Shown here: positions 6,737 through 62,559 of the stretch, one piece after another | Layout: each line of letters starts with the position of its first letter | How positions within the stretch are numbered: the stretch's first letter is position 1 | Assembly: GCA_037440925.1 (NCBI GenBank) | Contig: JBBITF010000006.1 | Span: forward strand, 1 to 64,000 | Source of the DNA: Chloroflexota bacterium | GTDB lineage: Bacteria; Chloroflexota; Anaerolineae; Anaerolineales; Villigracilaceae | Direction: 5' to 3' | Length of the DNA: 64,000 nt | Position numbers and translations under genes: made by a program | Notes under the pieces: generated by a model | Seen by the model: the letters and a program-made list of their open reading frames with translations, nothing else | The model's database searches: none | What the model was told of the DNA's origin: nothing

Positions 6737-6887
6737 GAATATCATCACCAACGCAAAAACGCCATCCGCGAAGAACAAGCCGAATATATCACCTCACTAC
6801 CATCAACCTTCGACATCGATTCAGAAGTGCCAATGCCTTAAAACCTTCTTTCGTCTTTCATCTTTCTTCTCATCAACGGAGACTCCC

Positions 6888-28496: not shown

Positions 28497-29612
28497 ATGA
28501 CTACTACTGCTGCAAAACAAGAAAAGGCTGCCGGTTCGGGAGTATTGAACTTCCTGGTCGGTCTCGTGATCGTTGTGGTGCTGTCCTTCCTGGCACGCTG
28601 GTTCAAAGATCAGGTCTATGGAATCAAAGACCTTTTCGGCTGGGGCATTCCGGGTAAAGTGTTGGAATTCCCGCTCTGGGCTGCGCTGTTGGGTTTGATT
28701 TTCAATCCCATTCTGAAAGCGCTCAAGATCTATGAGTATGCCAAATCTGGCTTTCGCACCGAATTGTTCCTGAAGATTGGTCTGGTATTGCTCGGCGCAG
28801 GCATCAGTTTTAAGGTGATTGTCACCGCTGCGGCGGGCGCCATCATTCAGGGCATCATCATGGTCACTGCGGTGTACTTCTTCTCGTGGTGGCTAGGCGG
28901 TAAGTTTGGTCTGTCCGATTCCCTGCGCGCAGTTATGTCCACGGCTATTTCGATCTGCGGCGTCTCGGCTGCGATCGCTGCTGCTGGCTCAGTGTTGGCT
29001 AAGAAGGAAGAGATCACTTACGTGACCGCTCTCGTCATCATCACCGCGCTGCCTCTAATGGTGATTGCTCCGTTACTGGCAGGCGCAATGCACATGCCCG
29101 AGCCGGTAGCAGGCGCCTGGTTTGGCGGCAACGTAGATACGACGGCTGCAGTCGTGGGCGCAGGTACGATCTATGGCGAGACGGCTCAAAAGATCGCCAG
29201 TATCGTCAAGCAGACCCAGAATGCCTTGATTGGTGTGGTGGCCTTCCTGCTGGCGCTGTACTTCTCGACCGTGGTTGAAGGCAAGAAGGAAAAGCCCAGC
29301 GCCGCCATTATTTGGCAGCGCTTCCCCAAATTTGTGTTGGGTTTCATCATCACTTCGTTGCTTTTCACCTTTGCCGTGATCCCCGGACCCGGCAAAGACA
29401 CTCCTACGGCTGGCAACACAATTTCTAGCATGAAGGATTGGGCCTTCTGCCTGGCCTTTGTGTGCATGGGCCTGGAACTGTCGGTGAGCGGCCTCAAGAA
29501 GATGGGCTGGCCGCCGGTCATTGTATATCTCATCGTGACCGTGTTCAACACCCTGTTGGCCCTGGTGGTGTCTTGGCTGATCTTCGGCTGGTTATTCCCT
29601 GCAAGCCTGTAA
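28497..29612 (+). CDS. YeiH/UPF0324 (putative sulfate-exporter, PSE) family membrane transporter
   Basis: About 10-11 TM helices with the overall YeiH-like architecture. AGGAGG RBS. The family assignment comes from sequence style only. Confidence 0.7.
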   Translation: MTTTAAKQEKAAGSGVLNFLVGLVIVVVLSFLARWFKDQVYGIKDLFGWGIPGKVLEFPLWAALLGLIFNPILKALKIYEYAKSGFRTELFLKIGLVLLGAGISFKVIVTAAAGAIIQGIIMVTAVYFFSWWLGGKFGLSDSLRAVMSTAISICGVSAAIAAAGSVLAKKEEITYVTALVIITALPLMVIAPLLAGAMHMPEPVAGAWFGGNVDTTAAVVGAGTIYGETAQKIASIVKQTQNALIGVVAFLLALYFSTVVEGKKEKPSAAIIWQRFPKFVLGFIITSLLFTFAVIPGPGKDTPTAGNTISSMKDWAFCLAFVCMGLELSVSGLKKMGWPPVIVYLIVTVFNTLLALVVSWLIFGWLFPASL

Positions 29613-29668: not shown

Positions 29669-29699
29669 GAGGGGAAAGCAAAGAGCATGCTTTCCCCTC
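29669..29699 (+). other. Stem-loop in the transporter-dsrA spacer
   Basis: An 11-bp stem GAGGGGAAAGC/GCTTTCCCCTC with a 9-nt loop. No T-tract follows, so this is not a canonical terminator. It may be an mRNA processing or stability element. Confidence 0.35.
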
Positions 29700-29740
29700 T
29701 GCATAAAAACGGACTTCAGCGGTCGCATGGAGGTAAAAAT

Positions 29741-30928
29741 ATGGCTAAGGACTCCAAAACCCCTATGCTGGATCAACTTGAAACAGGGCCCTGGCCGAGT
29801 TTTGTAAAAGAGATTAAGCGCGCTGCTGCCAAAAAAGACACAGCCAAGGATTTGCTGGGGCAGTTGGAGCGTTCTTATCGTGACAAAATCGGTCACTGGA
29901 AACATGGCGGTATCGTTGGCGTGAAGGGCTACGGCGGCGGCGTGATCGGGCGTTATTCCGACCTGCCAGAGGAATTCCCGTCTGTGGCTGAGTTTCACAC
30001 CTTGCGCGTCAATATGCCGGCCGGGTGGTTCTATACTACCGAGAAATTACGCCAATTATGTGATGTGTGGGACAAACATGGCAGCGGCCTGACCAACATG
30101 CACGGCGCCACCGGCGACATCATCCTGCTCGGCGCGCCCTCGGATGCGTTGCAGCCCTGCTTCGACGACTTGAGCGAAATTGACTTCGATTTGGGCGGTT
30201 CCGGCAGCGATATGCGCACGCCTTCCGCTTGTGTGGGACCTGCCCGCTGCGAGTATGCCTGCATCGATACCCTGGATATCCTTCGTGAGGTTACCCTGGA
30301 ATTCCAGGATGAGTTGCACCGCCCGATGTTCCCCTATAAATCCAAGATCAAGATTTCGGGCTGCCCGAACGATTGCGTGGCTTCGGTAGCGCGCTCGGAT
30401 TTCTCGGTCATTGGTACCTGGCGGGACAAAATCCTGATTGACCCTGCCGAGGTTGTCAATTATGCCAACAGCGGTCTGGATATCCAGGACGAAGTGGTCA
30501 ACCTTTGCCCGACGAACTGCATGAAATGGGATGCAGCCGCGAAGAAACTGAGCATCGATGACGCAGAATGCAACCGCTGTATGCACTGCATCAACCTGAT
30601 GCCTAAGGCGCTGCGCCCCGGCAAAGACAAGGGCGCGACCATCCTGGTCGGCGGCAAGGCCCCCATTGTGCATGGCGCGTTGATGTCTTGGGTGGTTGTT
30701 CCTTTCATGAAAATGGAGCCGCCATACGATGAACTGAAAGAATTCATCCGCAAGGCTTGGGAATGGTGGGACGAGAATGGCAAGATGCGCGAGCGCTTGG
30801 GTGAACTGATTCACCGCATGGGCATGCGTTCGTTCTTGAAAGCCATGGGCCTGCCGCCCGTGCCGCAGATGATTCGCACACCGCGTGCAAACCCCTATTA
30901 CTTCTGGGATCCTGAGGAGGTGAAATAA
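29741..30928 (+). CDS. dsrA: Dissimilatory sulfite reductase alpha subunit
   Basis: ORF 29687..30928. ATG 29741 lies behind GGAGG. DsrA-type N-terminus [18 protein letters not shown], sirohaem/FeS cysteines [11 protein letters not shown] and GCPNDCVAS, and a ferredoxin insert CPTNC...CNRCMHC. Confidence 0.95.
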
Positions 30929-31986
30929 TGGCCCGCACTGACTTTGGCCCTCCGAACTATAAAGACATGCTTCCGCCTGTCATTGCAAAGAACTATGGAC
31001 AGTGGAAGTATCACGAGCGTGTCAAACCAGGCGTTTTGAAGCATGTTGCCGAATCTGGCGATGAGTTGTATACCGTCCGCGTCGGTTCTTGCCGCCTGGT
31101 CAGCACCGACTGGATCCGCGATGTGTGCCAGATTGCCGACAAATATTGCGGCGGCCACCTGCGGTTTACCAGCCGCCACAACCTAGAGTTTCTGGTTTCT
31201 GACAAGAATCAGGTTGAACCTCTGCTGGCTCATCTCAAGCAAGAAGGCTACGCCGTAGGCGGCACCGGCCATGCCATCAGCAACCCGGTGCATACTCAGG
31301 GGTGGATTCACTGCCATACGCCCGCCACCGACGCCTCCGGCATTGTCAAGGCCGTGATGGACGATTTGTTCGAGTATTTCACAGATTGGAAGTTGCCGGC
31401 CTATTGCCGCATTTCTCTGGCTTGTTGTTTGAACATGTGCGGCGCGGTGCATTGCTCCGACATCGCCATCCTGGGTATCCATCGCAAGCCGCCGCACATC
31501 AATCACGATACGGTGCGCGCTAAATGCGAAATCCCCAACGTGATTGCGGCTTGTCCTACTGGCGCCATTCGTCCTGACCCCAAGGAAAAATCGCTGACGG
31601 TCAATGAAGAGAAGTGTATGTACTGTGGCAACTGCTATACCATGTGCCCGGGCATGCCGTTGGCCGATCCAGAGGGCGATGGCGTATCCATTTGGGTGGG
31701 CGGCAAGATTTCGAGCGCGCGCACAGCCCCCAAATTCTCTCGTCTGGTCATCCCTTACTTGCCCAACAATCCGCCGCGCTGGCCCGAAGTGACCGCGGCC
31801 GTGCGCAACATTGTTGAGACTTGGGCAAGCCATGCCCGCAAGCACGAGCGCATGGGCGAGTGGATTGACCGTATTGGTTGGGAACGATTCTTCGATCTGA
31901 CAGGCATTCCGTTCACTGTCCAACTCATTGACGACTTCACTCTGGCTACTGAAACCTTCCGGTCAACGCCTGCCTTCAAGTGGTAA
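30928..31986 (+). CDS. dsrB: Dissimilatory sulfite reductase beta subunit
   Basis: N-terminus TDFGPPNYKDMLPPVIAKNYGQWKYHE. Cysteine motifs are HCHTPATD, CCLNMCGAVHC, CPTGAI and CMYCGNCYTMCP. The start shares one base with the dsrA TAA. Confidence 0.95.
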   Translation: MARTDFGPPNYKDMLPPVIAKNYGQWKYHERVKPGVLKHVAESGDELYTVRVGSCRLVSTDWIRDVCQIADKYCGGHLRFTSRHNLEFLVSDKNQVEPLLAHLKQEGYAVGGTGHAISNPVHTQGWIHCHTPATDASGIVKAVMDDLFEYFTDWKLPAYCRISLACCLNMCGAVHCSDIAILGIHRKPPHINHDTVRAKCEIPNVIAACPTGAIRPDPKEKSLTVNEEKCMYCGNCYTMCPGMPLADPEGDGVSIWVGGKISSARTAPKFSRLVIPYLPNNPPRWPEVTAAVRNIVETWASHARKHERMGEWIDRIGWERFFDLTGIPFTVQLIDDFTLATETFRSTPAFKW

Positions 31987-31997
31987 AGAGGTGAAGC

Positions 31998-32207
31998 ATG
32001 AGCGACGAAGTGACGGAGGAACTGAAGAATCAAATCGTTGAATTCTTCAAACAAAAAGGGAAGATGATGACCCATCGTGATGTTGCCAAAGGCCTTGACC
32101 TGGATCAAAAACTGGTCAAGAAGGCGCTGACAGAATTAGTCAATGCCGGCACATTGGAATTTACTTCCTTTGGCGGCGCCACGTTCATCAAACTCCCCGG
32201 CACATGA
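31998..32207 (+). CDS. dsrD: DsrD (small winged-helix protein of reductive dsr operons)
   Basis: 69 aa, located directly after dsrB. KKALTELVNAGTLEFTSFGGATF matches the DsrD KKxLxxLVxxxxLE(Y/F) pattern. Confidence 0.85.
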   Translation: MSDEVTEELKNQIVEFFKQKGKMMTHRDVAKGLDLDQKLVKKALTELVNAGTLEFTSFGGATFIKLPGT

Positions 32208-32251
32208 CAGACCGAAGCGCTTTGTAAGATATTCTTTTTGAGGAGGTAGAT

Positions 32252-32569
32252 ATGCCTGTAGTCGAACTGAATGGGATACAGGTAAGTGTGGACGAGGATG
32301 GTTTCATTGAAGACCCTTCCGTATGGAATGAGGAATTGGCGGCTGCCATTGCCAAAACCGAGGAAGTCAATGAATTGACCGAGGATCATTGGAAGGTAGT
32401 CAAGTATCTGCGGGAATATTACCTGCAATTTGGCATTGCGCCCATGATCCGTAAACTCTGCAAAGAGACCGGTTACGACCTCAAAACCATTTACGAGTTA
32501 TTTCCAAGCGGTCCAGCCAAAGGCGCCTGCAAGATTGCTGGCTTGCCCAAGCCCACTGGCTGCGTCTAG
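32252..32569 (+). CDS. dsrC: DsrC (TusE/DsrC/DsvC family) with both C-terminal arm cysteines
   Basis: The C-terminus GACKIAGLPKPTGCV has the two conserved Cys residues 10 residues apart. GAGGAGG RBS. Confidence 0.95.
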   Translation: MPVVELNGIQVSVDEDGFIEDPSVWNEELAAAIAKTEEVNELTEDHWKVVKYLREYYLQFGIAPMIRKLCKETGYDLKTIYELFPSGPAKGACKIAGLPKPTGCV

Positions 32570-32675: not shown

Positions 32676-33422
32676 ATGAGCACAAGCGATATTTTGTGGA
32701 CCCTGCTTTCCCTCTTTTTCATTGGTCTGGCTTATTTTGCAGCCTTTTCTTTCGTGGCAGGTTTGCTGTGGAAATTCTACGGTTACTTGCGCACTCCCAT
32801 GCCTTTACCTCATGCTGTGACACCTGCTCCTAAGACAGAAGGGGGAGCCGTCTTACGCGTGTTAGGAGATGTCACCCTCTTCTCCAACCTGTTCAAAGCC
32901 GATAAATGGTTGTGGGGAGGTGCGTGGCTCTTCCATGTTGCCTTGGCTGCGGTTTTATTCCGTCACTTGCGTTATTTTACTTACCCCGTGCCTGGACTGG
33001 TCCTATACATGGAATCGGTGGCGCTATTCTTTGGCAGTTTGCTGGGGGCGGCTGCCTTGTTCCTGTTTTGGCGGCGGCTGGCTTTGCCGCGCACACTCTA
33101 TATTTCTAATATCCCCGATTATTTTGCCCTGGCTTTGTTGGGCGTGATTGCCGGCAGTGGCCTGATGGTGAATTACTGGTTGCGCGTCAATATCGTAGAT
33201 GTCAAAGGCTTTATTTTGGGATTGATGACTTTCCATCCTGTCGAAGTACCTCATCATCCCTTGTTCCTCTTGCATTTACTGGCCGTCCTGATTTTGATGA
33301 TTTACTTCCCTTTCAGCAAGTTGCTCCATGCAGGCGGTCTGATTTTCAGCCCCTCGCGTCATCAGCCTTTTCAGGTGCAGGTGCGCGGCAAGCGTTATAT
33401 CAATCCAGTTGACCGTTATTGA
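32676..33422 (+). CDS. dsrM: DsrM (NarI/HdrE-like dihaem b membrane subunit)
   Basis: Five to six TM helices with conserved His residues (LFHVA, FRHLRY, PHHPLFLLH, LLHAGG). It lies immediately upstream of dsrK. Confidence 0.85.
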   Translation: MSTSDILWTLLSLFFIGLAYFAAFSFVAGLLWKFYGYLRTPMPLPHAVTPAPKTEGGAVLRVLGDVTLFSNLFKADKWLWGGAWLFHVALAAVLFRHLRYFTYPVPGLVLYMESVALFFGSLLGAAALFLFWRRLALPRTLYISNIPDYFALALLGVIAGSGLMVNYWLRVNIVDVKGFILGLMTFHPVEVPHHPLFLLHLLAVLILMIYFPFSKLLHAGGLIFSPSRHQPFQVQVRGKRYINPVDRY

Positions 33423-33433: not shown

Positions 33434-34879
33434 ATGTCGAAATTCGATGAGACTCCGATTGTCAAAGACCCGGCAGTAAATGGCGTCTTGCGCCCGCCCA
33501 AACTCCGCGAACACGCTTCGGCAGAGGTGCAGTGTTATCCGAGCAAGCCCAAAGATACTTCGGCCATTGATTTGCCGACCGAATTGGTGCCGGATTGGAA
33601 AGAGCGTGCCATTGCCAGATTGGGCGAGTTGTTGGAAAAGAACCAGGCCTTGCGCGTCTACATGGACATCTGTGTGCGCTGCGGCGCCTGCACCGACAAA
33701 TGCCAGTTCTTCCTGGGGACGGGCGACCCGCAGAACTTCCCGGTGGCGCGCGCGGAACTGCTGCGAAAAGTCTATCGCCGCTACTTTACGCCGGCCGGTC
33801 TCTTCCCAGACCTGGGAGAGGCCGCCGATTTAGACGAAGAGATGCTCCAGAAGTGGTACACCTACTTCTACCAATGCTCCGAATGCCGCCGCTGTTCGGT
33901 CTTTTGCCCGTATGGCATAGATACTGCCGAAATTACCATTGCCGCGCGCGAGATCATGGCCTCGATTGGTGTCTCGACCAAATACATCACGGAAGTTGTG
34001 GCAAAGGTCTATGCTACTGGCAACAATCTGGGCATTCCGCCGGCTGCCTGGAAGGACAACTGCGAATTTCTCGAAGAGGATGTGCAGGCGGATACCGGCC
34101 TGCCTATCCGCTTCCCAGTCGATGAGAAAGGCGCCGAAGTTCTGCTGGTGCCGCCCTCGGCCGATAACTTTGCCAATACTGACACCATGATTGGCTATGG
34201 CAAACTCTTCCATTTCTTGGGCGTCAGTTGGACAACCAGCACCTACTGTAATGAAGGCGGTAACTTTGGCCTGTTCTTGAATTTTGCCAACTTGAAAAAA
34301 GTCAACCGCCGCATTCTGGATGCCGCCCGCGAATTGGGCGTCAAGACCATTATCTGGGGTGAGTGTGGACATGCCTGGCGGGCAGGCATTATGACGCCTT
34401 CGCTCAATGGCCCGATGGATGATTTCGATCCGCCTTATCCGTACCATATTAGCCAGTATATCGTTGACATGCTGCACAAAGGCGCTTTCGAGGGCCACAT
34501 AGACAAGTCGGCCAATGACCAGTATCTTGTCACCTATCATGACCCGTGCAATTCTGCGCGCGCGGGCTACCTCATCGAAGAACCGCGTGAGATCATCCGC
34601 GCCGTTTGTAACCGCTTTGTCGAAATGCCAGAAGGCACCATCCGCGAAAAGACTTTTTGCTGCGGCGCAGGCAACGGCCTGTTGACGGATGAGATTATGC
34701 CCATCCGCATGGCGGGCGGCAAACCGCGCGCCATGGCCGTCAAGCACACCGGCGCCAATTACCTGGCCACTGTATGTGCAATTTGCAAGGCGCAATTGCC
34801 CGAATCCATGCACTATTGGCAGGTGCCGGTCAAGGTGGGTGGCGTGATTGACTTGCTGGCGAACGCTCTCAAATTCTAG
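33434..34879 (+). CDS. dsrK: DsrK (HdrD-like Fe-S / CCG-domain catalytic subunit)
   Basis: Motifs: CVRCGACTDKC, CSECRRCSVFCPYGID, CGHAWR, HDPCNSAR, FCCGAGNG, CAICKAQL. Confidence 0.9.
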   Translation: MSKFDETPIVKDPAVNGVLRPPKLREHASAEVQCYPSKPKDTSAIDLPTELVPDWKERAIARLGELLEKNQALRVYMDICVRCGACTDKCQFFLGTGDPQNFPVARAELLRKVYRRYFTPAGLFPDLGEAADLDEEMLQKWYTYFYQCSECRRCSVFCPYGIDTAEITIAAREIMASIGVSTKYITEVVAKVYATGNNLGIPPAAWKDNCEFLEEDVQADTGLPIRFPVDEKGAEVLLVPPSADNFANTDTMIGYGKLFHFLGVSWTTSTYCNEGGNFGLFLNFANLKKVNRRILDAARELGVKTIIWGECGHAWRAGIMTPSLNGPMDDFDPPYPYHISQYIVDMLHKGAFEGHIDKSANDQYLVTYHDPCNSARAGYLIEEPREIIRAVCNRFVEMPEGTIREKTFCCGAGNGLLTDEIMPIRMAGGKPRAMAVKHTGANYLATVCAICKAQLPESMHYWQVPVKVGGVIDLLANALKF

Positions 34880-34894
34880 CCCTTGGAGACAGCC

Positions 34895-35197
34895 ATGCGC
34901 AAAGTAGCCTTGTCTCTCGTTGTATTCGGAATTCTGCTCTTGACGGTCCTCTTTTATCCGCGCTATGTGGAGAAACCCGTCAAGGACGGTGAAGGGCCGT
35001 TGGCGATTTACCTTGACCCCAGCCTGCCGGCGCCTGAATATCACAGCCCCTTAGACTGGTGGAAACGGAATCACAAGACGATCGTCAATCGCGGCGACCT
35101 GGACAGGCGCGATTGCCTGCAATGCCATGACCCGGCCACCTCTTGCAACAATTGTCACGCTTATGTGGGCGCGGCTGAGATTGTCGTTGCCCCCTAA
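34895..35197 (+). CDS. Membrane-anchored dihaem cytochrome c (occupies the dsrJ position but is not a trihaem DsrJ)
   Basis: N-terminal TM helix VALSLVVFGILLLTVLF and two CxxCH motifs (CLQCH, CNNCH). ATG 34895 lies behind GGAG; the track ORF begins at TTG 34883. Confidence 0.75.
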   Translation: MRKVALSLVVFGILLLTVLFYPRYVEKPVKDGEGPLAIYLDPSLPAPEYHSPLDWWKRNHKTIVNRGDLDRRDCLQCHDPATSCNNCHAYVGAAEIVVAP

Positions 35198-35659
35198 ATG
35201 GTGAGCGCTATGACGGATACTTCTGTTTCCTCTCCTAAACCTTCCATTTTCTCCCGCCGCCGCCAGTTTATTCAACTGGGCTTCTTGACGGTGGCAGCCG
35301 CCTGGCTGGGAACATGGCTGCAAGCGCGTCTCTTCCCGGCCGCCAGCGCCAGCCAGGAAGCTGCGCCGGTCTCTTTTCCATTGAGCGACTTGCCGGTTGG
35401 CGGAGCCAAAGCCATTACGTATGGCGGCATTCCTGTATTGGTATTGCGCACCCCGCAGAGTCTCCGCGCCTTCTCGTTGATTTGCACGCACCTGGGCTGT
35501 ATTGTGGAATGGCAAGATAACAAGAAGGAATTTTATTGCCCTTGTCACGATGGCCGCTATGATGAATTTGGCGATGTGTTGGCCGGCCCCCCGCCCATTC
35601 CGTTGGAGCAATTTGCCGTGCGCATCGAGGGCGAACAAGTCATCGTCGGCGAGGCTTGA
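35198..35659 (+). CDS. Tat-exported Rieske [2Fe-2S] protein
   Basis: Twin-arginine motif SRRRQFIQLG plus a hydrophobic anchor. Rieske boxes are CTHLGC and CPCHDGRY. Its ATG abuts the stop of the upstream gene. Confidence 0.9.
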   Translation: MVSAMTDTSVSSPKPSIFSRRRQFIQLGFLTVAAAWLGTWLQARLFPAASASQEAAPVSFPLSDLPVGGAKAITYGGIPVLVLRTPQSLRAFSLICTHLGCIVEWQDNKKEFYCPCHDGRYDEFGDVLAGPPPIPLEQFAVRIEGEQVIVGEA

Positions 35660-35674
35660 GGCAGGAGAATGAAC

Positions 35675-36049
35675 ATGAAACGTTTTCTAATTTTCTTCGG
35701 TTCACTGCTTGTGACTGTGGCGTTGCTGTTGGCCCTCTTGCCCGCTGCTACGGCCCAAGCCCTTCCCGAATATTCAGCGCAGACCGGGGAACCCTGCGCC
35801 TCTTGTCACATCAGCCCCTCGGGCGGCGGCCCCCGCGGCCCGCGCGGGCAGGCCTGGGTAGCCTCCGGCAAACCCGGCGCCGTGCCGGATACGCTCCAGG
35901 CGCTCGAATTGCTGGGCGTCGAATTGAGCGTGGATCCGGCCTATTTTACGGCAACAGGTTTCGAGGTCCAGGAACCGGAAGCGCTGCAGGTCGCTCCGGC
36001 CCAGAGCGTGCGCTTGTACCGTTGGTTGAGTCAATATGATGGCAATTAG
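35675..36049 (+). CDS. Secreted monohaem cytochrome c
   Basis: Sec signal peptide (LLALLPAATAQA) and a single CASCH. AGGAG lies 8 nt before ATG 35675; the alternative start is ATG 35669. Confidence 0.75.
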   Translation: MKRFLIFFGSLLVTVALLLALLPAATAQALPEYSAQTGEPCASCHISPSGGGPRGPRGQAWVASGKPGAVPDTLQALELLGVELSVDPAYFTATGFEVQEPEALQVAPAQSVRLYRWLSQYDGN

Positions 36050-36080: not shown

Positions 36081-38450
36081 ATGGAAAACTTCCCCTCTCA
36101 GACTCCTCCCTCAGAACTTTCCCGTCGTGATTTCATCAAATTTGGCGCCGCTGCCGCCATCGCCGGCGTTGGACTGAACGCTTTGCAGCCAGCGCAGCAG
36201 GCTACCTCGGTGCAAGCGGCGGTGGGTGAAGAGACGATTGTTAAAACGACATGCGCCTTGTGCCCCTCAGGCTGCGGCCTGGATGTGCGCGTGGTGAACG
36301 GCAAGGCGGTGAAAGTGGAAGGCAACCCGCTGCACCCGCTCAACCAGGGCGTATGCTGCCTGCGGGGACAGACCTCGTTGGAGGTGCTGTATAGCCCAGA
36401 GCGCATCCAACGCCCGCGCGTCCAGATGGGCGAGCGCGGTTCGGGCGATTGGAAAGAAATCTCGTGGGACGAGGCGCTTGAACTGGCGGCTGGCAAACTC
36501 GGTGAACTGCGCGCCGCTGGAAAGCCTCATAGCGTTGCGCTCATGCATGGCGAACTGCGCGGGCAAATGCGCCAGACGGTGCAGCGTTTCATGCGCGCCT
36601 ATGGCTCGCCGAATGTCATTTCGCGCGAGAGTTTGGGCGAAGGCGCGGCCCGTATGGCTTTATGGCTTTCACAAGGCGTAAACGCGCTGCCGGTCTACGA
36701 CATCAACAACGCCAATTATGTGTTGACCTTTGGGGGCAACCTGCTCGAATCCAGCCGCAACTTGATTGGCTATCTGGGCGCGACGGCTTTCATGCGGCGC
36801 GGACGCCCACAGCGCGGCAAACTGGTGGCCGTCCACCCGCGCCTTTCTCTGACCGGCATCAAGGCCGACGAGTGGGTGCCAATCCGCCCTGGCACGTATG
36901 GCGCGCTGGCTTTGGGCATGGCCAATGTCATCATCAACAGCAAACTATATGACGAAGCCTTCGTGCGCGACTTTACCTTTGGCTTCGAGGATTTCGAGGA
37001 CGCCGAGGGGACGTTGCACAAAGGCTTCAAGTCGCTGGTGTTGGAAACCTATACCCTCGAGCGCGTCTCGGCTATTACGGGCGTCTCTACCGATAAGATT
37101 GCCCGCATTGCGGGCGAATTTGCCACCAACCGCCCGGCGGTCGCCATGCTGCCCACCGAGGCGGGCGAACTCTCTAGCGGCAATGCGCTGTACACGGCGC
37201 TGGCCGTCCATGCCTTGAATGCCCTGGTTGGCTCGATAGACGTCAAGGGCGGCGTCCTCTTGCAGCGCTTCCCTAAATTGGCCGACTGGCCTGACTACAC
37301 CCTCGATGCGACAGCCCGCCTGGGAGAAAGCCGCGAGCGCATAGACGGGGCCGGCTCCCAATTCCCCTTGGCGCTATCGGCCTATCAGAATGTGCCAGAG
37401 CGCATCCTGGAGGGCAAGCCTTACCCCATCGAGGCCCTCTTCTTGCTGAACGCCAACCCGCTCTACGACCTGCCCAATGGCGGGCGTACCCTGGAAGCCT
37501 TGCAAAAAGTACCTTTTGTGGTCAGTTTTGCCTCCACCCTCGACGAAAGCGCGGCCTATGCCGACCTGATTTTGCCGGCCAGCACCTTCCTAGAAGTGTG
37601 GGGCGACGATTACCTGGAAGGCACGGGCTATGCGGGCATCTCCCTGCGCCAGCCGGCTGTTGCGCCGCTCCACGATACGCGCAATCCCGGCGACGTGCTG
37701 CTCGACCTGGCGCACCGCATCGGAGGTAATCTGGCAAAAGCCTTCCCCTGGGAAACCTACCAAGACCTGATCATGCAGCGCCTGTCTACCCTGGATTGGG
37801 AGAAATTGCAGGCCAACGGCAACTGGTCCGAACTGGTCTATTTCAACGCCCAACCCGGCAGCCCCGCCTGGAGCGAGGTGGTCGGACGTGACCGCTTGAA
37901 CGCTCCCAAAGATGGACGCTTCGACTTCTTCTCGCGCGAACTCTTCGCCCTGCTCGCTTCGGACTCGGACTTGGCCTGCTTGCCCCACTTCGAGATTCCC
38001 CCCGCCCTGGCCGACACTGCCGAGGGCGCCCTCGACTATCCTTTCCTGCTGGTCGTACAGCCGCTCATCACCCAGTCGCAGCAATGGCAAGGCATCGTCC
38101 CCACCTTGCAGGAGAGTTACGGCTTGCAAGGGCATGTCAAGTGGGACAGTTGGGTAGAAATCAGCCAGAAGGCAGCCGAAGCCCTCCACCTCGAGGATGG
38201 GCAGCGCGTGTGGGTAGAATCGCCGCTCGACCGCGTGCAGGCCACCGTTAGGGTATATGCTGGCATCTGGCCGAATGCCGTCTTCCTGCCGCCTGGACAG
38301 GGCCATCACACCTTTGTGCGCTGGGGCCGCAAATCTGAGCAGAACATGGTCGTCGGCGCCAACCCGAATGTTCTGAGTTTGTTTACGAGCGAGCCGTTGA
38401 GCGGACTGGCCGTAGCCGGCCCCACCCGCGTCCGTATTTATCCGGTTTGA
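36081..38450 (+). CDS. Tat-exported molybdopterin (Mo-bisPGD) oxidoreductase-family large subunit (PsrA/PhsA/QrcB/ActB1-like)
   Basis: Tat signal SRRDFIKFGAAAAIAG. The FS0 motif is CALCPSGC-x26-C(C)LRG. Length is 789 aa. FeS and NrfD subunits follow. Confidence 0.9.
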   Translation: MENFPSQTPPSELSRRDFIKFGAAAAIAGVGLNALQPAQQATSVQAAVGEETIVKTTCALCPSGCGLDVRVVNGKAVKVEGNPLHPLNQGVCCLRGQTSLEVLYSPERIQRPRVQMGERGSGDWKEISWDEALELAAGKLGELRAAGKPHSVALMHGELRGQMRQTVQRFMRAYGSPNVISRESLGEGAARMALWLSQGVNALPVYDINNANYVLTFGGNLLESSRNLIGYLGATAFMRRGRPQRGKLVAVHPRLSLTGIKADEWVPIRPGTYGALALGMANVIINSKLYDEAFVRDFTFGFEDFEDAEGTLHKGFKSLVLETYTLERVSAITGVSTDKIARIAGEFATNRPAVAMLPTEAGELSSGNALYTALAVHALNALVGSIDVKGGVLLQRFPKLADWPDYTLDATARLGESRERIDGAGSQFPLALSAYQNVPERILEGKPYPIEALFLLNANPLYDLPNGGRTLEALQKVPFVVSFASTLDESAAYADLILPASTFLEVWGDDYLEGTGYAGISLRQPAVAPLHDTRNPGDVLLDLAHRIGGNLAKAFPWETYQDLIMQRLSTLDWEKLQANGNWSELVYFNAQPGSPAWSEVVGRDRLNAPKDGRFDFFSRELFALLASDSDLACLPHFEIPPALADTAEGALDYPFLLVVQPLITQSQQWQGIVPTLQESYGLQGHVKWDSWVEISQKAAEALHLEDGQRVWVESPLDRVQATVRVYAGIWPNAVFLPPGQGHHTFVRWGRKSEQNMVVGANPNVLSLFTSEPLSGLAVAGPTRVRIYPV

Positions 38451-38477: not shown

Positions 38478-39164
38478 ATGCCCCGCTGGGGAATGGTCAT
38501 TGACCTGGACAAATGCTTTGCCTGCCAGAGCTGCACCGCAGCCTGCCGCATGGAAAACAACACGCCTGTGGCCGGAAAGAACCAGGCCGATATGGGGCGC
38601 GCCATCCTGTGGAACGAGGTCTTGCCGTTCATAGAAGGCGAGTATCCCAATATCCACACCACCATGTTGCCGCGCCCGTGTATGCACTGCGACAACCCAC
38701 CCTGCGTTAAAGTCTGCCCGGTGCAGGCGACTTACAAAAACGAAGAAGGCATCGTGCTGGTGAACTACGATCGCTGTATTGGCTGCCGCATGTGCACTGT
38801 GGCTTGCCCTTATGCCGTGCGTTACTTCAACTGGTACCCCCCCGAATGGCCCGAGGAACTGAAAGCGCACTTGAATCCAGAACCGGAAGTGCAGCCTCGT
38901 CCTAAAGGCGTGGTCGAAAAATGTACCTTCTGCTTCCAGCGTTTGCGCAAAGCGCGTGAAGAAGCCGATGCAGAAGGTCGTCCTTTCAACGCCACTGACT
39001 ACACCCCTGCCTGCGTGCAAACCTGCACCGGCCACGCCCGCTACTTTGGCGACCTGGATGACCCGAACAGCCTGGTCTCTAAACTGGCGCATAGCCCGCG
39101 CGCCTTCCGTATGTTCGAAGAACTTGGCACACAGCCCAAAGTCTATTACTTGAAGCAAGGGTGA
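38478..39164 (+). CDS. 4x[4Fe-4S] ferredoxin-type electron-transfer subunit (PsrB/DsrO/QrcC/ActB2-like)
   Basis: Four Cys clusters: CFACQSCTAAC, CMHCDNPPCVKVCP, CIGCRMCTVACP, CTFC...CVQTC. It has no signal peptide of its own, so it would need to be co-exported with the Tat subunit. GGAGG RBS. Confidence 0.9.
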   Translation: MPRWGMVIDLDKCFACQSCTAACRMENNTPVAGKNQADMGRAILWNEVLPFIEGEYPNIHTTMLPRPCMHCDNPPCVKVCPVQATYKNEEGIVLVNYDRCIGCRMCTVACPYAVRYFNWYPPEWPEELKAHLNPEPEVQPRPKGVVEKCTFCFQRLRKAREEADAEGRPFNATDYTPACVQTCTGHARYFGDLDDPNSLVSKLAHSPRAFRMFEELGTQPKVYYLKQG

Positions 39165-39168: not shown

Positions 39169-40497
39169 ATGGAACCCAAGAATCAAAACGTACAGCAAAT
39201 CCTTGCTCCCGTGCGCCGCGTTTCGGCTGGCGATTACCTGCTGTGGGGCGTCTTGCTTGCCTTGTTGTTGACCGGCCTGGGCGCCTGGACGTGGCAATTC
39301 ATCGAGGGCTTGGGCATCACCGGCATGAACCGCCCGGTCTATTGGGGCGTATACATTACCAACTTCGTTTTCTTCATCGGCCTGGCGCATTCCGGCACCT
39401 TCATCTCGGCCATCTTGCGCATCGCCGGGCAGAGTTGGCGCGCCCCGCTCACCCGCGCTGCCGAAGCCATCACGCTTTTCAGCCTGCCCTTCGGTGCTGG
39501 CTCCATCATTATTGATATGGGGCACCCCGAGCGCATCCTCAATGTCATTTTCTATGGACGTTACCAGTCGCCCATCCTGTGGGATGTGACAGCCGTCAGC
39601 CTGTATATGCTCTCCAGCATCATCTTCTTCTACTTCTCGCTCATCCCCGACATTGCGATTTGCCGCGACCGCCTCACCGACGCTCCGCGCTGGCAGCGCC
39701 GCATGTACCAAATCCTGGCTCTGGGTTGGAAGCACCATCCTGAGCAATATCGCCGTCTGGAAAAAGTGCTGGATGGTATGGCCGTTTTCATGACCATGTT
39801 GGTCGTCACCGTTCACACTGTGGTTTCCTGGCTGTTTGGCATGACCGTCCAACCTGGCTGGCATACCGCCTTGATCGGGCCGTTCTTCCTGTTGGGCGCC
39901 ATCCTATCGGGAACGGCGGCGGTGGTGATCACCTTGGCCATCCTGCGCAAGGTCTATCATCTGGAAAATGTCTTGCATGTCGGCCTGTTCAACTCTTTGC
40001 GCAAACTGTTGATTACCTTTGTCCTGGGCTGGCTGTACATGATGATCGCCGAGCATCTCACCATTGGTTATAGCAGCATGACCGAAGAGATGGTCGTCCT
40101 CAACGACAAATTCAGCGGCACCTTCTCGTTGATTTTCTGGAGCATGGCTACCTTCGTGTTTGGTCTTCCTTTGCTCATCTTCCTCTTCAAAGGCAAGAAC
40201 AATATCGGTTGGATGGTGTTTGCCTGTGTCCTCATCAATATTGGCATGTGGCTGGAGCGTTACATTGTCATCATCCCTACCGAGGTTAGCCCGCGCATGT
40301 TGCATGTCATGGGACAGGGACACTACCTCCCCCAACTGCCTGAAATCCTCATCACGATTGCCTGTTTCGCTGGCCTCATCCTGCTCTACGCGGTCTTTAC
40401 TCGTTTCTTCCCCATTGTTCCCATCTGGGAGACGGCTCAGGAACTGCCCGGCCACGCGCATTCTCAGCCGGCTCCGGCAGCCGCAGCCAGCGATTAG
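39169..40497 (+). CDS. NrfD-family quinone-interacting membrane subunit (ActC/QrcD/DsrP-like, 442 aa)
   Basis: About 10 TM helices. WGVYITNFVFFIGLAHSGTFISAILR, SPILWDV, GWHTALIGPFFLLGAILSG and GMWLERYIVIIP resemble the ACIII ActC/ActF and Qrc style of NrfD proteins. Confidence 0.9.
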   Translation: MEPKNQNVQQILAPVRRVSAGDYLLWGVLLALLLTGLGAWTWQFIEGLGITGMNRPVYWGVYITNFVFFIGLAHSGTFISAILRIAGQSWRAPLTRAAEAITLFSLPFGAGSIIIDMGHPERILNVIFYGRYQSPILWDVTAVSLYMLSSIIFFYFSLIPDIAICRDRLTDAPRWQRRMYQILALGWKHHPEQYRRLEKVLDGMAVFMTMLVVTVHTVVSWLFGMTVQPGWHTALIGPFFLLGAILSGTAAVVITLAILRKVYHLENVLHVGLFNSLRKLLITFVLGWLYMMIAEHLTIGYSSMTEEMVVLNDKFSGTFSLIFWSMATFVFGLPLLIFLFKGKNNIGWMVFACVLINIGMWLERYIVIIPTEVSPRMLHVMGQGHYLPQLPEILITIACFAGLILLYAVFTRFFPIVPIWETAQELPGHAHSQPAPAAAASD

Positions 40498-40515: not shown

Positions 40516-40704
40516 ATGAACATTGGCGGTTTGGTTCACGCATATTTCGACAATGCCGGCCCGGGCGGAGTCTTTGTCTTGCTGGTTGTCGGCGTTGCCT
40601 GCACTACCTACTACCTCCTGGCCCGCTGGTTCGTAGCCGGCGGTAGAACAGAGAGCCAGGCAGTTCCTTCTACCGATGAACAACCTGTGAGCATGGACGA
40701 ATGA
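40516..40704 (+). CDS. 62-aa single-TM protein (ActD-like position)
   Basis: AGGAGG RBS, one TM helix (VFVLLVVGVACTTYYLL), and a 4-nt ATGA overlap with the next gene. Confidence 0.55.
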   Translation: MNIGGLVHAYFDNAGPGGVFVLLVVGVACTTYYLLARWFVAGGRTESQAVPSTDEQPVSMDE

Positions 40705-50820: not shown

Positions 50821-50821
50821 G

Positions 50822-52314: not shown

Positions 52315-52349
52315 ATCGAAAAGAGCCTCCTACTCATTAAAGTTGGATA

Positions 52350-54296: not shown

Positions 54297-54460
54297 CGTT
54301 AAGACCTGAAAGAACAAGAACAATTTTCTTCTGTATCTTCTCGAAAGAGGCAGAACAGCCCTCTCGCTATTGAGAGGATACTTCTTCGACCTTTTCGGGA
54401 GCAAATTCGACTAAAGGGAGGCCTCGAAAAGAGCGTATTGTGCAAAAAAACACTATCTTT

Positions 54461-62480: not shown

Positions 62481-62559
62481 TCATTAACCTGAATTTGCTA
62501 TGCATAGGAGGGTGGGGCATCAGAGTATAATTTACATATCCTATTGCCTGGAGGATGAG

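What the first reader, a model, noticed from the sequence alone, without database searches (positions are those of the whole stretch)
35198..35659. Tat-Rieske protein with no adjacent cytochrome b partner, encoded between two c-type cytochromes
Seen: a complete Rieske fold signature (CTHLGC...CPCHDGRY) with a twin-arginine leader that probably serves as an uncleaved membrane anchor. Its ATG directly abuts the stop of the dihaem c gene, and a monohaem c gene follows. Established: bc1/b6f-type Rieske proteins are encoded with cytochrome b, and arsenite oxidase AioB is encoded with a signal-less AioA. Here the neighbouring Mo-family subunit carries its own Tat signal, and the only quinone-site candidate in the module is an NrfD protein. 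Inference: a Rieske centre wired to an NrfD-type quinol site would be a new way of building a high-potential branch.
Basis: partly seen in the sequence, partly recalled or inferred. Interest (0 to 1): 0.6.

Follow-up and report, generated by a model that had tools for sequence, protein, structure and literature searches.

The report
Rieske protein in Dsr/NrfD respiratory module
A real bc-type Rieske iron-sulfur protein sits inside the sulfite-reduction (dsr) operon of Anaerolineales bacteria; there an NrfD-type quinol module related to alternative complex III (ACIII) and to Qrc occupies the place where related bacteria encode the Rieske's usual cytochrome b partner, a gene combination I found described in no paper.

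Summary
Window 35198/35210-35659 encodes a conserved Tat-Rieske protein (CTHLGC...CPCHDGRY). It lies between a dihaem and a monohaem c gene, and no bc-type cytochrome b is in the window.

- **Operon.** The gene lies in one dsr operon, dsrABDC-MK, then dihaem c, Rieske, monohaem c, Mo-like, FeS, NrfD, a small protein and a haem/repeat protein. About 30 Anaerolineae species genomes share this order.
- **Dihaem c.** It is a remote DsrJ homologue.
- **Mo-like subunit.** It lacks the Mo-ligand cysteine in all 30 orthologues but keeps the FS0 cysteine motif and a Tat signal.
- **NrfD.** It resembles ActC of alternative complex III.
- **Sister loci.** In other Chloroflexota the same DsrJ-like and Rieske pair is followed by cytochrome b6 and subunit IV, exactly where the NrfD cassette sits here. 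A third variant has a separate Rieske/cytochrome b complex.

Best reading: the Rieske is a retained bc-type subunit. It links an exchangeable menaquinol-oxidising module to DsrJ-like, then DsrM and DsrK, replacing canonical DsrJOP. Electrons probably reach it through the FeS chain, not directly from the NrfD site.

"High-potential" is not supported: Gly replaces the tuning Ser, and Phe replaces Tyr in most orthologues. I class it as a new variant of known kinds; no biochemistry has been done.

The parts
29687..31986 (+). dsrA (29687-30928) and dsrB (30928-31986), dissimilatory sulfite reductase; start of the operon
   Evidence: Translations. Orthologous genes in L001/L004 carry NIR_SIR and NIR_SIR_ferr domains. 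The same order is seen in about 35 loci.
31998..32569 (+). dsrD (31998-32207) and dsrC (32252-32569)
   Evidence: Orthologues in L001/L004 carry PF08679 DsrD and PF04358 DsrC. tblastn map.
32676..33422 (+). dsrM, NarI-type membrane dihaem cytochrome b
   Evidence: PF02665 at E 1e-10. NCBIfam cytob_DsrM scores 141.9 bits, below the cutoff of 300.
33434..34879 (+). dsrK, catalytic CCG-domain FeS subunit
   Evidence: NCBIfam DsrK scores 526.5 bits, above the cutoff of 400.
34883..35197 (+). c2h: membrane-anchored dihaem cytochrome c (CLQCH, CNNCH) and a remote DsrJ homologue; the likely start is the ATG at 34895
   Evidence: Hydrophobic N-terminus and two CxxCH motifs. 29 of 30 family members hit NF038038 cytoc_DsrJ, best E 4.4e-6, all far below the cutoff of 100. 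It always follows dsrK in the 39 loci, wherever upstream sequence is held.
35198..35659 (+). Rieske [2Fe-2S] protein (the finding); likely start 35210. Sub-features: Tat motif 35252-35269, predicted anchor helix about 35246-35332, box I 35483-35500, box II 35537-35560
35669..36049 (+). c1h: exported monohaem cytochrome c (CASCH) with invariant ALPEY..QTGEPCxxCH.SPSGGG; present only in NrfD-type loci
   Evidence: No Pfam or NCBIfam family matched.
36081..38450 (+). Mo-bisPGD-family subunit with a Tat signal and FS0 cysteine motif but no Mo-ligand Cys (QrcB/ActB1-like scaffold)
   Evidence: Pfam PF04879, PF00384, PF01568 and the TAT signal. PhsA 336 bits and QrcB 293 bits, both below their cutoffs. 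The ArrA/PsrA ligand Cys aligns to Gly. That position is never Cys and varies across 30 orthologues. The FS0 motif and SRRDF are invariant.
38478..39164 (+). Four-cluster FeS subunit (16 Cys) without a signal peptide
   Evidence: QrcC 266.6 bits (cutoff 400) and DsrO 192 bits (cutoff 200). Sequence. It is the most conserved subunit of the cassette, 76-98% identity.
39169..40497 (+). NrfD-family membrane subunit, ActC-like (type A)
   Evidence: PF03916. The best solved relatives are ACIII ActC: 6f0k_C at E 4.4e-63, then 6lod_C, 6btm_C and 8k9e_C. DsrP scores only 107.6 bits against a cutoff of 350.
40516..40704 (+). 62-aa single-helix membrane protein that co-occurs with type A NrfD
40701..42791 (+). 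cRep: signal/anchor, one CxxCH haem, two transmembrane helices and about 470 aa of Ala-rich repeats. Cytochrome b-type loci split it into a 200-aa haem protein and a protein of about 542-566 aa whose N-terminus resembles a lipoprotein signal (my reading, not tested)
   Evidence: No Pfam family matched.

Best explanation
The gene encodes a functional bc-type Rieske [2Fe-2S] protein, exported by Tat and held by an N-terminal helix. It is a subunit of a Chloroflexota-specific replacement for the DsrJOP part of the DsrMKJOP sulfite-respiration complex.

The constant core next to DsrMK is a two-haem DsrJ-like cytochrome, the Rieske protein and a haem/repeat protein. The quinol-oxidising module that feeds this core is exchangeable. 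It is cytochrome b6/subunit IV in Dehalococcoidia-type loci. One Anaerolineae lineage has a separate complete Rieske/cytochrome b complex. In the window's lineage it is a five-gene ACIII/Qrc-like cassette: monohaem c, a Mo-less scaffold that keeps FS0 and the Tat signal, a four-cluster FeS protein, an ActC-like NrfD and a small membrane protein.

Proposed electron path (inferred): menaquinol is oxidised at NrfD. Electrons pass to the FeS chain, then possibly through FS0 and/or the monohaem c, then to the Rieske cluster, the DsrJ-like haems, the DsrM haems, DsrK and finally DsrC-trisulfide. Quinol protons are released outside.

On this reading the Rieske is a mid-chain adaptor, kept because the DsrJ-like cytochrome was already adapted to accept electrons from it. 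It is not the primary quinol oxidant.

Shown here: gene content, conservation, the homologies and the module swap. Inferred: physical association, electron order and direction.
For: - **Rieske is real and of the bc type.**. The top solved relatives are the Chlorobaculum tepidum and Kuenenia Rieske proteins, then b6f and bc1.
- **Under selection.** CTHLGC and C.CH are intact in 120 of 120 relatives. The Rieske gene is present in every NrfD-type locus whose contig covers that position.
- **One tight operon from dsrA to cRep.** Gaps are 0-30 nt in the module and one gene pair overlaps.
- **Synteny.** The order is kept in about 30 species-level genomes at 57-95% Rieske identity.
- **Sister loci.** They have c2h, Rieske, cytochrome b6 (PF00033) and subunit IV (PF00032, PEWY motif) at the same position. 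The Rieske and cytochrome b genes overlap by 4 nt.
- **The wider family pairs with cytochrome b.** P0128, 43% identical, sits next to cytochrome b6 and subunit IV.
- **c2h is a remote DsrJ homologue** (29 of 30 members) and occupies DsrJ's operon position after a bona fide DsrK.
- **Solved DsrMKJOP.** Quinol is oxidised at DsrP and electrons run through DsrO, DsrJ, DsrM and DsrK. Menadiol lies less than 8 A from a DsrO cluster (bioRxiv 10.64898/2026.08.25.746951).
- **Cassette components.** NrfD is ActC-like. FeS scores near QrcC and DsrO. The Mo ligand is absent.
- **Anchor helix.** It is as conserved as the cluster domain, with invariant W32, G34, Q38 and F42. It is unchanged when the NrfD type is swapped. 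The third variant, which has no adjacent Q module, shares its pattern.
- **Literature.** Genome papers have already noted b6f genes in place of dsrJOP in another phylum (PMC10439189).
Against: - No experimental data exist for any of these proteins.
- A bc-type Rieske centre, even one lacking the Ser/Tyr hydrogen bonds, is expected from general knowledge to sit well above menaquinone. It could therefore act as a thermodynamic trap on the way to DsrM and DsrK.
- Known ACIII and Rieske/cytochrome b complexes deliver electrons to high-potential acceptors, not to a sulfur reductase.
- c2h resembles DsrJ only weakly: at most about 4e-6, all scores far below the family cutoff, and 0.8 for the window copy.
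- Physical contact of the Rieske with any cassette subunit is untested. No multimer modelling was possible.
- The Mo-like subunit could still bind a pterin without a protein ligand, as arsenite oxidase does (own knowledge).
- The window also holds a separate Hmc-like complex (49015-53726) that could serve DsrMK.
- The direction of evolution, whether cytochrome b or NrfD came first, rests on a midpoint-rooted neighbour-joining tree only.
Confidence: 0.5

Rival explanations
1. Same parts, different sink. The Rieske, the c-type cytochromes and the ACIII-like cassette (or cytochrome b6/subunit IV in relatives) form an ordinary quinol:cytochrome c oxidoreductase. It passes electrons to oxygen, nitrate or nitrite reductases. 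It is co-encoded with dsr because these bacteria run the Dsr pathway oxidatively or by disproportionation: DsrMK reduces quinone and the Rieske module re-oxidises it.
For: - Both known module types work downhill towards cytochrome c (own knowledge of ACIII and bc complexes).
- Chloroflexi Dsr systems are described as chimeric, with DsrMK and DsrN near oxidative-type clades (PMC10504309).
- A DsrE-like gene follows at 42813-43196.
- Ca. Desulfolinea nitratireducens (locus L011) is reported from suboxic water with nap/nar genes and terminal oxidases (PMC8359478).
- Cable bacteria are proposed to use a partial Rieske/cytochrome b complex during sulfide oxidation (PMC13047784).
Against: - DsrD, a marker taken to indicate reductive operation, is present in all loci (10.1101/2023.06.27.546762).
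- The DsrJ-like cytochrome sits between dsrK and the Rieske gene, which suggests a direct DsrM link.
- The third variant keeps the first Rieske although a complete Rieske/cytochrome b complex with its own Rieske is present. An ordinary quinol:cytochrome c oxidoreductase would not need that.
Confidence: 0.2
2. The Rieske cluster itself is the primary electron acceptor at the NrfD quinol site, giving a Qo-like Rieske/NrfD site in which NrfD replaces cytochrome b as the direct partner.
For: - The cassette occupies exactly the cytochrome b6/subunit IV slot next to the Rieske gene.
- The cluster-binding loops (CTHLGC, CPCH, GPPP) are kept as in the cytochrome b-linked orthologues.
Against: - A four-cluster FeS subunit is present and is the most conserved cassette protein. 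In solved DsrOP the quinol lies less than 8 A from an FeS cluster of the partner subunit.
- NrfD types A and B, 47% identical, are exchanged between operons whose Rieske proteins are 97% identical.
- The anchor-helix pattern is shared with the third variant, which has no adjacent NrfD or cytochrome b.
Confidence: 0.1
3. The Mo-family, FeS and NrfD genes encode a catalytic periplasmic enzyme: a thiosulfate, polysulfide or tetrathionate reductase, or an oxidase without a protein ligand to Mo, like arsenite oxidase. The Rieske and cytochromes are its redox partners.
For: - The best curated match is PhsA at 336 bits, and ArrA and PsrA are the best solved relatives.
- The FS0 motif, the Tat signal and the C-terminal pterin-binding domain PF01568 are retained.
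- A published overview lists psrA/phsA/sreA among the genes found across five putative sulfate-reducer MAGs, Ca. Desulfolinea among them (PMC8359478).
- Arsenite oxidase has no protein ligand to Mo and pairs with a Rieske subunit (own knowledge).
Against: - The Mo-ligand Cys of ArrA and PsrA aligns to Gly, and the position varies (G, D, A, N, Q, E) and is never Cys in 30 orthologues.
- All curated cutoffs are missed by a wide margin.
- NrfD is ActC-like, not PsrC-like.
- The Rieske scores 33 bits on the AioB model against 70 on the bc1 model.
- Cytochrome b6/subunit IV, which has no catalytic site for sulfur compounds, substitutes for the cassette in relatives.
Confidence: 0.1
4. The Rieske works with a conventional cytochrome b encoded elsewhere in the genome, and its position in the dsr operon is a leftover of the ancestral arrangement.
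For: The family is clearly of the Rieske/cytochrome b type. Only 64 kb of this genome, and about 20 kb per related locus, could be inspected.
Against: - Position and tight spacing are conserved across about 30 genomes at 57-95% identity.
- The anchor helix has diverged from cytochrome b-linked orthologues to a distinct, highly conserved pattern that is less hydrophobic (peak Kyte-Doolittle score 1.05-1.85 against 1.84-1.98).
- No cytochrome b lies within 10 kb in any NrfD-type locus.
Confidence: 0.07

Closest known systems
Rieske/cytochrome b6-type genes embedded in dsr operons in place of dsrJOP (reported for Electryoneota 'Tariuqbacter', PMC10439189; found here in Dehalococcoidia and other Chloroflexota, loci L005, L043-L046)
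   Same: Same operon logic, dsrABC-MK followed by a Rieske gene. The Chloroflexota cytochrome b-type loci also have an orthologous dihaem DsrJ-like gene before the Rieske gene and a haem/repeat protein after the module.
   Different: The window has no cytochrome b6 or subunit IV. A monohaem c, a Mo-like subunit, an FeS subunit, NrfD and a small protein take their place, and the Rieske anchor helix has a different conserved pattern.
Alternative complex III (ActABCDEF)
   Same: ActC-like NrfD subunit (E 4e-63 to 6f0k_C). A Mo-family scaffold without the Mo ligand. A four-cluster FeS module. c-type cytochrome and small membrane subunits. ACIII is known as a functional substitute for bc complexes (role from own knowledge).
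   Different: ACIII has no Rieske protein, has a pentahaem ActA and a second NrfD subunit (ActF), and has ActB as a B1-B2 fusion (own knowledge). Here B1 and B2 are separate genes, the FS0 motif is retained, only monohaem and dihaem cytochromes occur, there is a single NrfD, and the whole lies in a dsr operon.
QrcABCD menaquinone reductase of sulfate reducers
   Same: Identical gene order: cytochrome c, Mo-like, FeS, NrfD. QrcC is the best curated match for the FeS subunit (266.6 bits) and QrcB is a strong match for the Mo-like subunit (293.5 bits).
   Different: All scores are below the Qrc cutoffs. QrcB is described as having no redox cofactors (PMC13059093), whereas the FS0 cysteines here are invariant. 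QrcA is multihaem. Qrc reduces menaquinone, whereas substitution by cytochrome b6/subunit IV argues for quinol oxidation here. Qrc has no Rieske.
DsrMKJOP
   Same: DsrK passes the curated cutoff. DsrM is present. c2h is a remote DsrJ homologue in DsrJ's position. The FeS subunit scores 192 bits on DsrO (cutoff 200). An NrfD-family subunit is in DsrP's position.
   Different: Two haems instead of three in the DsrJ-like protein. Extra Rieske, monohaem c, Mo-like and haem/repeat subunits. The FeS subunit lacks its own Tat signal. NrfD is closer to ActC than to DsrP.
Arsenite oxidase AioAB
   Same: As far as I know, the only established case of a Rieske subunit working with a Mo-bisPGD-family subunit rather than cytochrome b.
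   Different: The Rieske scores 33.2 bits on AioB (cutoff 95.65) against 69.8 on the bc1 model. The large subunit is nearest ArrA, PsrA and QrcB, carries its own Tat signal and has a four-Cys FS0 motif. A separate four-cluster FeS subunit and an NrfD subunit are present.

Membership tests
Rieske iron-sulfur subunit of Rieske/cytochrome b (bc1/b6f-type) complexes | Box I CxHxGC and box II CxCH, including the two disulfide cysteines | tested here: met
   CTHLGC at 35483-35500 and CPCH at 35537-35548. Intact in 120 of 120 relatives.
Rieske iron-sulfur subunit of Rieske/cytochrome b (bc1/b6f-type) complexes | Fold and sequence closest to bc/b6f Rieske proteins rather than to ferredoxins or AioB | tested here: met
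   PDB sequence hits: 8hn2_A at 2.4e-21, then 9rk4, 2e74_D and bc1 chains. Foldseek top hits: 8hn2_A, 9rk4_A, then bc1 and b6f chains, with one oxygenase ferredoxin (3gce) at rank 5. NCBIfam scores: bc1 69.8, PetC 67.4, AioB 33.2, dioxygenase ferredoxin 16.9 bits.
Rieske iron-sulfur subunit of Rieske/cytochrome b (bc1/b6f-type) complexes | Reaches the curated family score (TIGR01416 97.4 bits; PetC NF045928 250 bits) | tested here: not met
   69.8 and 67.4 bits. It is a short, minimal Rieske of 149 aa.
Rieske iron-sulfur subunit of Rieske/cytochrome b (bc1/b6f-type) complexes | N-terminal twin-arginine signal retained as a membrane anchor | tested here: inconclusive
   RRRQF motif and AlphaFold2 helix 13-41. 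The helix is highly conserved but only moderately hydrophobic (peak Kyte-Doolittle score 1.45). It is followed by ASA, a possible signal-peptidase site that is not conserved. Cleavage cannot be decided from sequence.
Rieske iron-sulfur subunit of Rieske/cytochrome b (bc1/b6f-type) complexes | Encoded with, and working on, a cytochrome b (PF00033/PF00032) | tested here: not met
   None in the window or within 10 kb in about 30 orthologous loci. Met in sister-clade loci L005 and L043-L046. The rest of the genome was not searchable.
Rieske iron-sulfur subunit of Rieske/cytochrome b (bc1/b6f-type) complexes | Ser and Tyr hydrogen-bond donors after box II that raise the potential (high-potential subclass) | tested here: not met
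   CPCHDGRY aligns to CPCHGSQY of b6f, so Ser is replaced by Gly. Gly in 120 of 120 relatives; Tyr in 35 and Phe in 85 of 120.
Arsenite oxidase small subunit AioB | Curated model TIGR02694 (cutoff 95.65 bits) and an AioA partner lacking its own signal peptide | tested here: not met
   33.2 bits. The neighbouring large subunit has its own Tat signal and is nearest ArrA, PsrA and QrcB.
Rieske-type ferredoxins of oxygenase systems | Soluble, no signal peptide, no disulfide cysteines, encoded with oxygenase genes | tested here: not met
   Tat signal and both disulfide cysteines are present. 16.9 bits against a cutoff of 113. No oxygenase genes in the operon.
Alternative complex III | ActC-type NrfD quinol subunit | tested here: met
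   6f0k_C at 4.4e-63, 6lod_C at 2.3e-58, 6btm_C at 6.9e-58, aligned over nearly the full length.
Alternative complex III | Mo-family domain devoid of the Mo ligand, plus a four-cluster FeS domain | tested here: met
   The ligand Cys aligns to Gly and is never Cys in 30 orthologues. The FeS subunit has 16 Cys. Difference: the two are separate genes and the FS0 motif is kept.
Alternative complex III | Pentahaem ActA, monohaem ActE and a second NrfD subunit ActF (composition from own knowledge) | tested here: not met
   Only one NrfD gene and only monohaem or dihaem cytochromes in the module. ActF chains match weakly, at about 1e-4.
QrcABCD | Curated QrcB and QrcC scores (cutoffs 440 and 400 bits) | tested here: not met
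   293.5 and 266.6 bits. No QrcD hit for the NrfD subunit at E<=0.01.
DsrMKJOP | DsrK and DsrM | tested here: met
   DsrK 526.5 bits, above 400. DsrM is recognisable at 141.9 bits but below the cutoff of 300.
DsrMKJOP | Trihaem DsrJ, Tat-exported DsrO and DsrP at curated scores | tested here: not met
   c2h has two haems and only remote DsrJ similarity (best 4.4e-6, cutoff 100 bits). FeS scores 192 bits on DsrO against 200 and has no signal peptide. NrfD scores 107.6 bits on DsrP against 350.

The most novel reading that the evidence does not exclude
The Rieske cluster works directly at, or bifurcates electrons from, a non-cytochrome-b quinol site (the ActC-like NrfD, or even the NarI-type DsrM). 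That would create a Rieske-dependent quinol-oxidising complex without cytochrome b that drives DsrC-trisulfide reduction. It would be a third architecture for Rieske chemistry beside bc/b6f complexes and arsenite oxidase.
Probability: 0.1. Interest if true: 0.9.

Novelty: new variant of a known kind. Interest (0 to 1): 0.65.

Why it matters
- **Composition.** As far as I know, Rieske proteins work only with cytochrome b, with arsenite oxidase, or as soluble ferredoxins, and alternative complex III is the Rieske-free substitute for bc complexes. Here a bc-type Rieske is strictly conserved next to an ACIII/Qrc-like NrfD module. Close relatives carry cytochrome b6/subunit IV in the same slot, which amounts to a natural swap experiment.
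- **Ecology.** The module sits in the dsr operon of Anaerolineae found widely in sediments, groundwater and bioreactors. It apparently replaces DsrJOP, the part of the sulfite-respiration machinery now thought to perform quinol oxidation and proton release.
- **Energetics.** If the cytochrome b variant runs a Q cycle and the NrfD variant does not, the two would differ in energy yield per sulfite. That makes an open question about energy conservation in sulfite reduction testable.
- **Annotation.** The Mo-family gene in these MAGs lacks the canonical Mo ligand, so reading it as psrA/phsA (polysulfide or thiosulfate reductase) may be wrong.

Tried and rejected
- **Window scan for cytochrome b.** Pfam on about 40 ORFs and tblastn with cytochrome b6/subunit IV found none.
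- **Complete chromosome locus L027.** Uninformative, because a 100-N gap follows the dihaem c gene.
- **DsrM quinol site.** I tried to type DsrM as quinol-site open or blocked by comparison with solved structures, but there were no PDB sequence hits at E<=1.
- **P0001.** The look-up of the 100% identical protein found no record.
- **P0121 and P0127.** Their contigs were too short to be informative.
- **c1h, the haem domain of cRep and the 62-aa protein.** No Pfam or NCBIfam family matched meaningfully even at E<=10.
- **Literature.** Nine full-text searches found no paper describing a Rieske gene with an NrfD/Mo-like cassette in a dsr operon.
- **Rejected readings.** Oxygenase-type Rieske ferredoxin and AioB. 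A decaying relic gene. The minus-strand DsrK-like cluster as a canonical DsrMKJOP; it is Hmc-like.
- **Concatenated DsrABK tree.** Distorted by truncated genes, so not used for rooting.
Full report
**1. Observation**

The ORF at 35198-35659 (+) is real and is as described. It encodes SRRRQF, then a hydrophobic stretch, then CTHLGC (35483-35500) and CPCHDGRY (35537-35560). Pfam Rieske matches at E 4.6e-13. The protein has 627 relatives at E<=1e-3 in the clustered protein database, named as Anaerolineales or Chloroflexota MAG proteins where named. A search of 1.8 billion cluster representatives gives 10,736 hits at E<=1e-3 but only six at E<=1e-30, so this is a distinct subfamily of a very large family.

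An AlphaFold2 model built on 41 sequences has mean pLDDT 90, with a helix at residues 13-41 and a compact beta domain. The upstream stop (35195-35197) abuts ATG 35198. However, most of the 120 listed homologues are 149 aa and so begin at the equivalent of ATG 35210, which has a GGTGAG motif 4 nt upstream. I take 35210 as the likely start. The flanking genes are a membrane-anchored protein with two CxxCH motifs (34883-35197) and an exported protein with one CxxCH (35669-36049).

**2. Kind of Rieske**

Curated models rank it as follows: bc1 Rieske 69.8 bits, b6f PetC 67.4, AioB 33.2, sulredoxin 25.2, dioxygenase ferredoxin 16.9. All are below their cutoffs. The best solved relatives by sequence and by fold are the Chlorobaculum tepidum Rieske soluble domain (8hn2_A), Kuenenia kuste4569 (9rk4_A), and b6f and bc1 Rieske subunits. 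Both disulfide cysteines are present.

In the alignment to b6f PetC, CPCHDGRY matches CPCHGSQY, so the potential-raising Ser is Gly. Across the 120 nearest clusters this Gly is universal, and the Tyr is Phe in 85 and Tyr in 35. It is therefore a minimal bc-type Rieske that lacks most of the high-potential hydrogen-bond network.

**3. Context in the window**

The gene lies in one tightly packed operon:

| Coordinates | Gene |
|---|---|
| 28497-29612 | PF03601 membrane protein |
| 29687-31986 | dsrA, dsrB |
| 31998-32569 | dsrD, dsrC |
| 32676-33422 | dsrM |
| 33434-34879 | dsrK (526.5 bits, cutoff 400) |
| 34883-35197 | dihaem c (c2h) |
| 35198-35659 | Rieske |
| 35669-36049 | monohaem c (c1h) |
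| 36081-38450 | Mo-family subunit |
| 38478-39164 | four-cluster FeS subunit |
| 39169-40497 | NrfD |
| 40516-40704 | 62-aa membrane protein |
| 40701-42791 | 696-aa protein: one haem, two further membrane helices, Ala-rich repeats (cRep) |
| 42813-43196 | DsrE-like |
| 43464-44888 | DsrN/CbiA |
| 44885-46015 | radical SAM |

There is no canonical dsrJOP. No bc-type cytochrome b occurs among the window's larger ORFs or by tblastn.

**4. The neighbouring subunits**

- **Mo-family protein.** It has a Tat signal and the FS0 motif CxxCxxxC...C, both invariant in 30 orthologues. The Mo-ligand cysteine of ArrA (6cz7) and PsrA (2vpw) aligns to Gly. That position is variable and never Cys in 30 orthologues. 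Its best curated matches are PhsA (336 bits) and QrcB (293.5 bits), both below cutoff.
- **FeS protein.** It has 16 cysteines and no signal peptide, so it presumably rides out with the Tat-bearing large subunit (inference). It scores 266.6 bits on QrcC and 192 on DsrO, whose cutoff is 200.
- **NrfD protein.** It is ActC-like, matching 6f0k_C at 4.4e-63 over nearly the full length. It scores only 107.6 bits on DsrP.
- **Gene order.** Cytochrome c, Mo-like, FeS, NrfD is the qrcABCD order. QrcB, however, is described as lacking redox cofactors (PMC13059093), whereas the FS0 cysteines are kept here.
- **Dihaem c.** It is a remote DsrJ homologue. 29 of 30 family members hit the DsrJ model, with a best E of 4.4e-6, and the L005 copy aligns over profile positions 30-114 of 121. 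All scores are far below the cutoff.

**5. Comparative evidence**

Exact-protein look-ups and one scan of species-representative genomes with the dihaem c family gave 39 Chloroflexota loci. In every locus whose contig extends upstream, dsrK immediately precedes the dihaem c gene. Three architectures appear.

- **(i) NrfD type.** About 30 loci in Anaerolineales and Anaerolineae, including Ca. Desulfolinea nitratireducens. All show the order seen in the window, and every locus whose contig covers that position has the Rieske gene, at 57-95% identity.
- **(ii) Cytochrome b type.** Loci L005-L007 and the Dehalococcoidia loci L043-L046. The order is dihaem c, Rieske, cytochrome b6 (PF00033), subunit IV (PF00032, PEWY motif), a 200-aa haem protein and a repeat protein of about 542-566 aa; the last two together correspond to cRep. 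In L005 the Rieske and cytochrome b genes overlap by 4 nt.
- **(iii) Third type.** Loci L041 and L042. The order is dihaem c, Rieske, cRep, then a GltD-like flavo-FeS protein, cytochrome b, a second Rieske and a four-domain cytochrome c.

A midpoint-rooted neighbour-joining tree of the Rieske proteins gives a monophyletic NrfD-type clade. Type (iii) is its sister and the cytochrome b type lies outside both. A more distant relative (P0128, 43% identity) sits next to cytochrome b6 and subunit IV. The cassette c1h, Mo-like, FeS, NrfD and small protein therefore occupies exactly the slot that cytochrome b6/subunit IV holds in relatives.

**6. Where the Rieske probably sits in the chain**

Four observations argue against the Rieske cluster being the direct oxidant at the NrfD quinol site.

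- The FeS subunit is the best conserved cassette protein (76-98%). In the solved DsrMKJOP complex, menadiol in DsrP lies less than 8 A from a DsrO cluster, and electrons run DsrP, DsrO, DsrJ, DsrM, DsrK (10.64898/2026.08.25.746951).
- NrfD comes in two ActC-like types: A (with the 62-aa protein) and B (37-50% identical to A). L014 and L015 differ in NrfD (47% identity) while their other proteins are 88-98% identical and their Rieske proteins are 97% identical.
- The Rieske anchor helix carries invariant W32, G34, Q38 and F42. Its pattern (GAAWxGTxxQxxLFP) is shared with type (iii), which has no adjacent quinol module, and differs from the more hydrophobic cytochrome b-linked anchors.
- Type (iii) keeps this Rieske although a complete Rieske/cytochrome b complex with its own Rieske is present.

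I therefore favour the Rieske as a mid-chain adaptor between an exchangeable quinol-oxidising module and the DsrJ-like cytochrome that feeds DsrM and DsrK.

**7. Caveats and rivals**

- **No experiment exists.** Direction of electron flow is inferred.
- **Potential.** A Rieske centre is expected to be much more positive than menaquinone (own knowledge) and may be an awkward intermediate on the way to DsrK.
- **Oxidative rival.** The same parts would fit a quinol:cytochrome c oxidoreductase serving an oxidative or disproportionating Dsr pathway. Published analyses call Chloroflexi Dsr systems chimeric (PMC10504309). Ca. Desulfolinea is described from suboxic water with nitrate reductases and oxidases (PMC8359478). 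DsrD in all loci argues for reductive operation.
- **Catalytic rival.** The large subunit might still bind a pterin without a protein ligand, as arsenite oxidase does (own knowledge), so a catalytic role is not excluded.
- **Distal cytochrome b.** A cytochrome b elsewhere in the genome could not be checked.

**8. Comparison with what is known, and novelty**

Substitution of dsrJOP by petBCD-like genes has been noted for Electryoneota MAGs (PMC10439189). I found no paper describing a Rieske gene together with a Mo-like/FeS/NrfD cassette, in a dsr operon or elsewhere, in nine full-text searches. The library is limited to open-access papers and preprints.

The module is a new composite of known parts: DsrMK and a DsrJ-like cytochrome, a bc-type Rieske, and an ACIII/Qrc-like cassette. 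I class it as a new variant of a known kind. It is of real interest to bioenergetics because of the natural swap between cytochrome b and NrfD with the Rieske retained.

Noticed in passing
window 49015-53726 (- strand): A second membrane redox cluster: a DsrK/HmcF-like CCG protein (52350-53726), an HmcE/NarI-like protein (51610-52314), an HmcB-like FeS protein (50822-51613) and an HmcC-like NrfD fused to a C-terminal class III multihaem cytochrome c domain (49015-50820). All are below curated cutoffs. An HTH-cupin regulator lies at 53739-54404.
   Followed up: partly
L014:14297-15634 versus L015:14232-15569, and 13 other loci: The NrfD gene exists in two ActC-like types: A, always with the 62-aa protein, and B, without it. 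They are exchanged between otherwise near-identical operons: NrfD is 47% identical while all other proteins are 88-98% identical. This looks like cassette replacement by recombination.
   Followed up: partly
L042:5555-14727 and L041: A third dsr-locus architecture with two Rieske genes: dihaem c, Rieske and cRep, then a GltD-like NAD(P)-flavo-FeS protein, cytochrome b, a second Rieske, a four-domain class I cytochrome c and a second DsrMK-like pair. To my recollection it resembles anammox-type Rieske/cytochrome b gene clusters.
   Followed up: partly
window 40701-42791; L005:11568-13782: The 696-aa haem/repeat protein has no Pfam family. Cytochrome b-type loci split it into a 200-aa monohaem membrane protein and a repeat protein of about 542-566 aa whose N-terminus looks like a lipoprotein signal (LLSSC), which would place the Ala-rich repeats outside the membrane. 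Its function is unknown, and it is conserved in all three locus types.
   Followed up: partly
L001:18154-20169 and many other loci (for example L011, L012, L021, L024): A second DsrM-like/DsrK-like pair (TmcC/HmcE-like and DsrK/HmcF-like) directly follows the haem/repeat gene in many loci but not in the window. In those genomes two HdrED-type pairs therefore flank the periplasmic module.
   Followed up: no
window 28497-29612: A PF03601 (Cons_hypoth698, YeiH-like) membrane protein lies immediately upstream of dsrA in most loci. It is a candidate sulfite or sulfur-anion transporter (speculation).
   Followed up: no
window 36081-38450 and orthologues: A published overview lists psrA/phsA/sreA among genes found across five putative sulfate-reducer MAGs, Ca. 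Desulfolinea among them. If that call rests on this Mo-family gene, the missing Mo-ligand cysteine in all 30 orthologues suggests it may be wrong.
   Followed up: partly
window 16645-20619: SecA is unusually long (1324 aa), with its P-loop and wing domains matched in split stretches, which suggests large insertions.
   Followed up: no
window 195-8582 and 62500-63729: Beta-oxidation-type genes flank the region: a family III CoA-transferase, 3-hydroxyacyl-CoA dehydrogenase, two thiolases and acyl-CoA dehydrogenases.
   Followed up: no
L027:10329-10429: The record labelled as a complete chromosome (CP070811.1) has a 100-N gap right after the dihaem c gene, followed by unrelated genes. The Rieske module is therefore missing or misassembled there.
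   Followed up: partly
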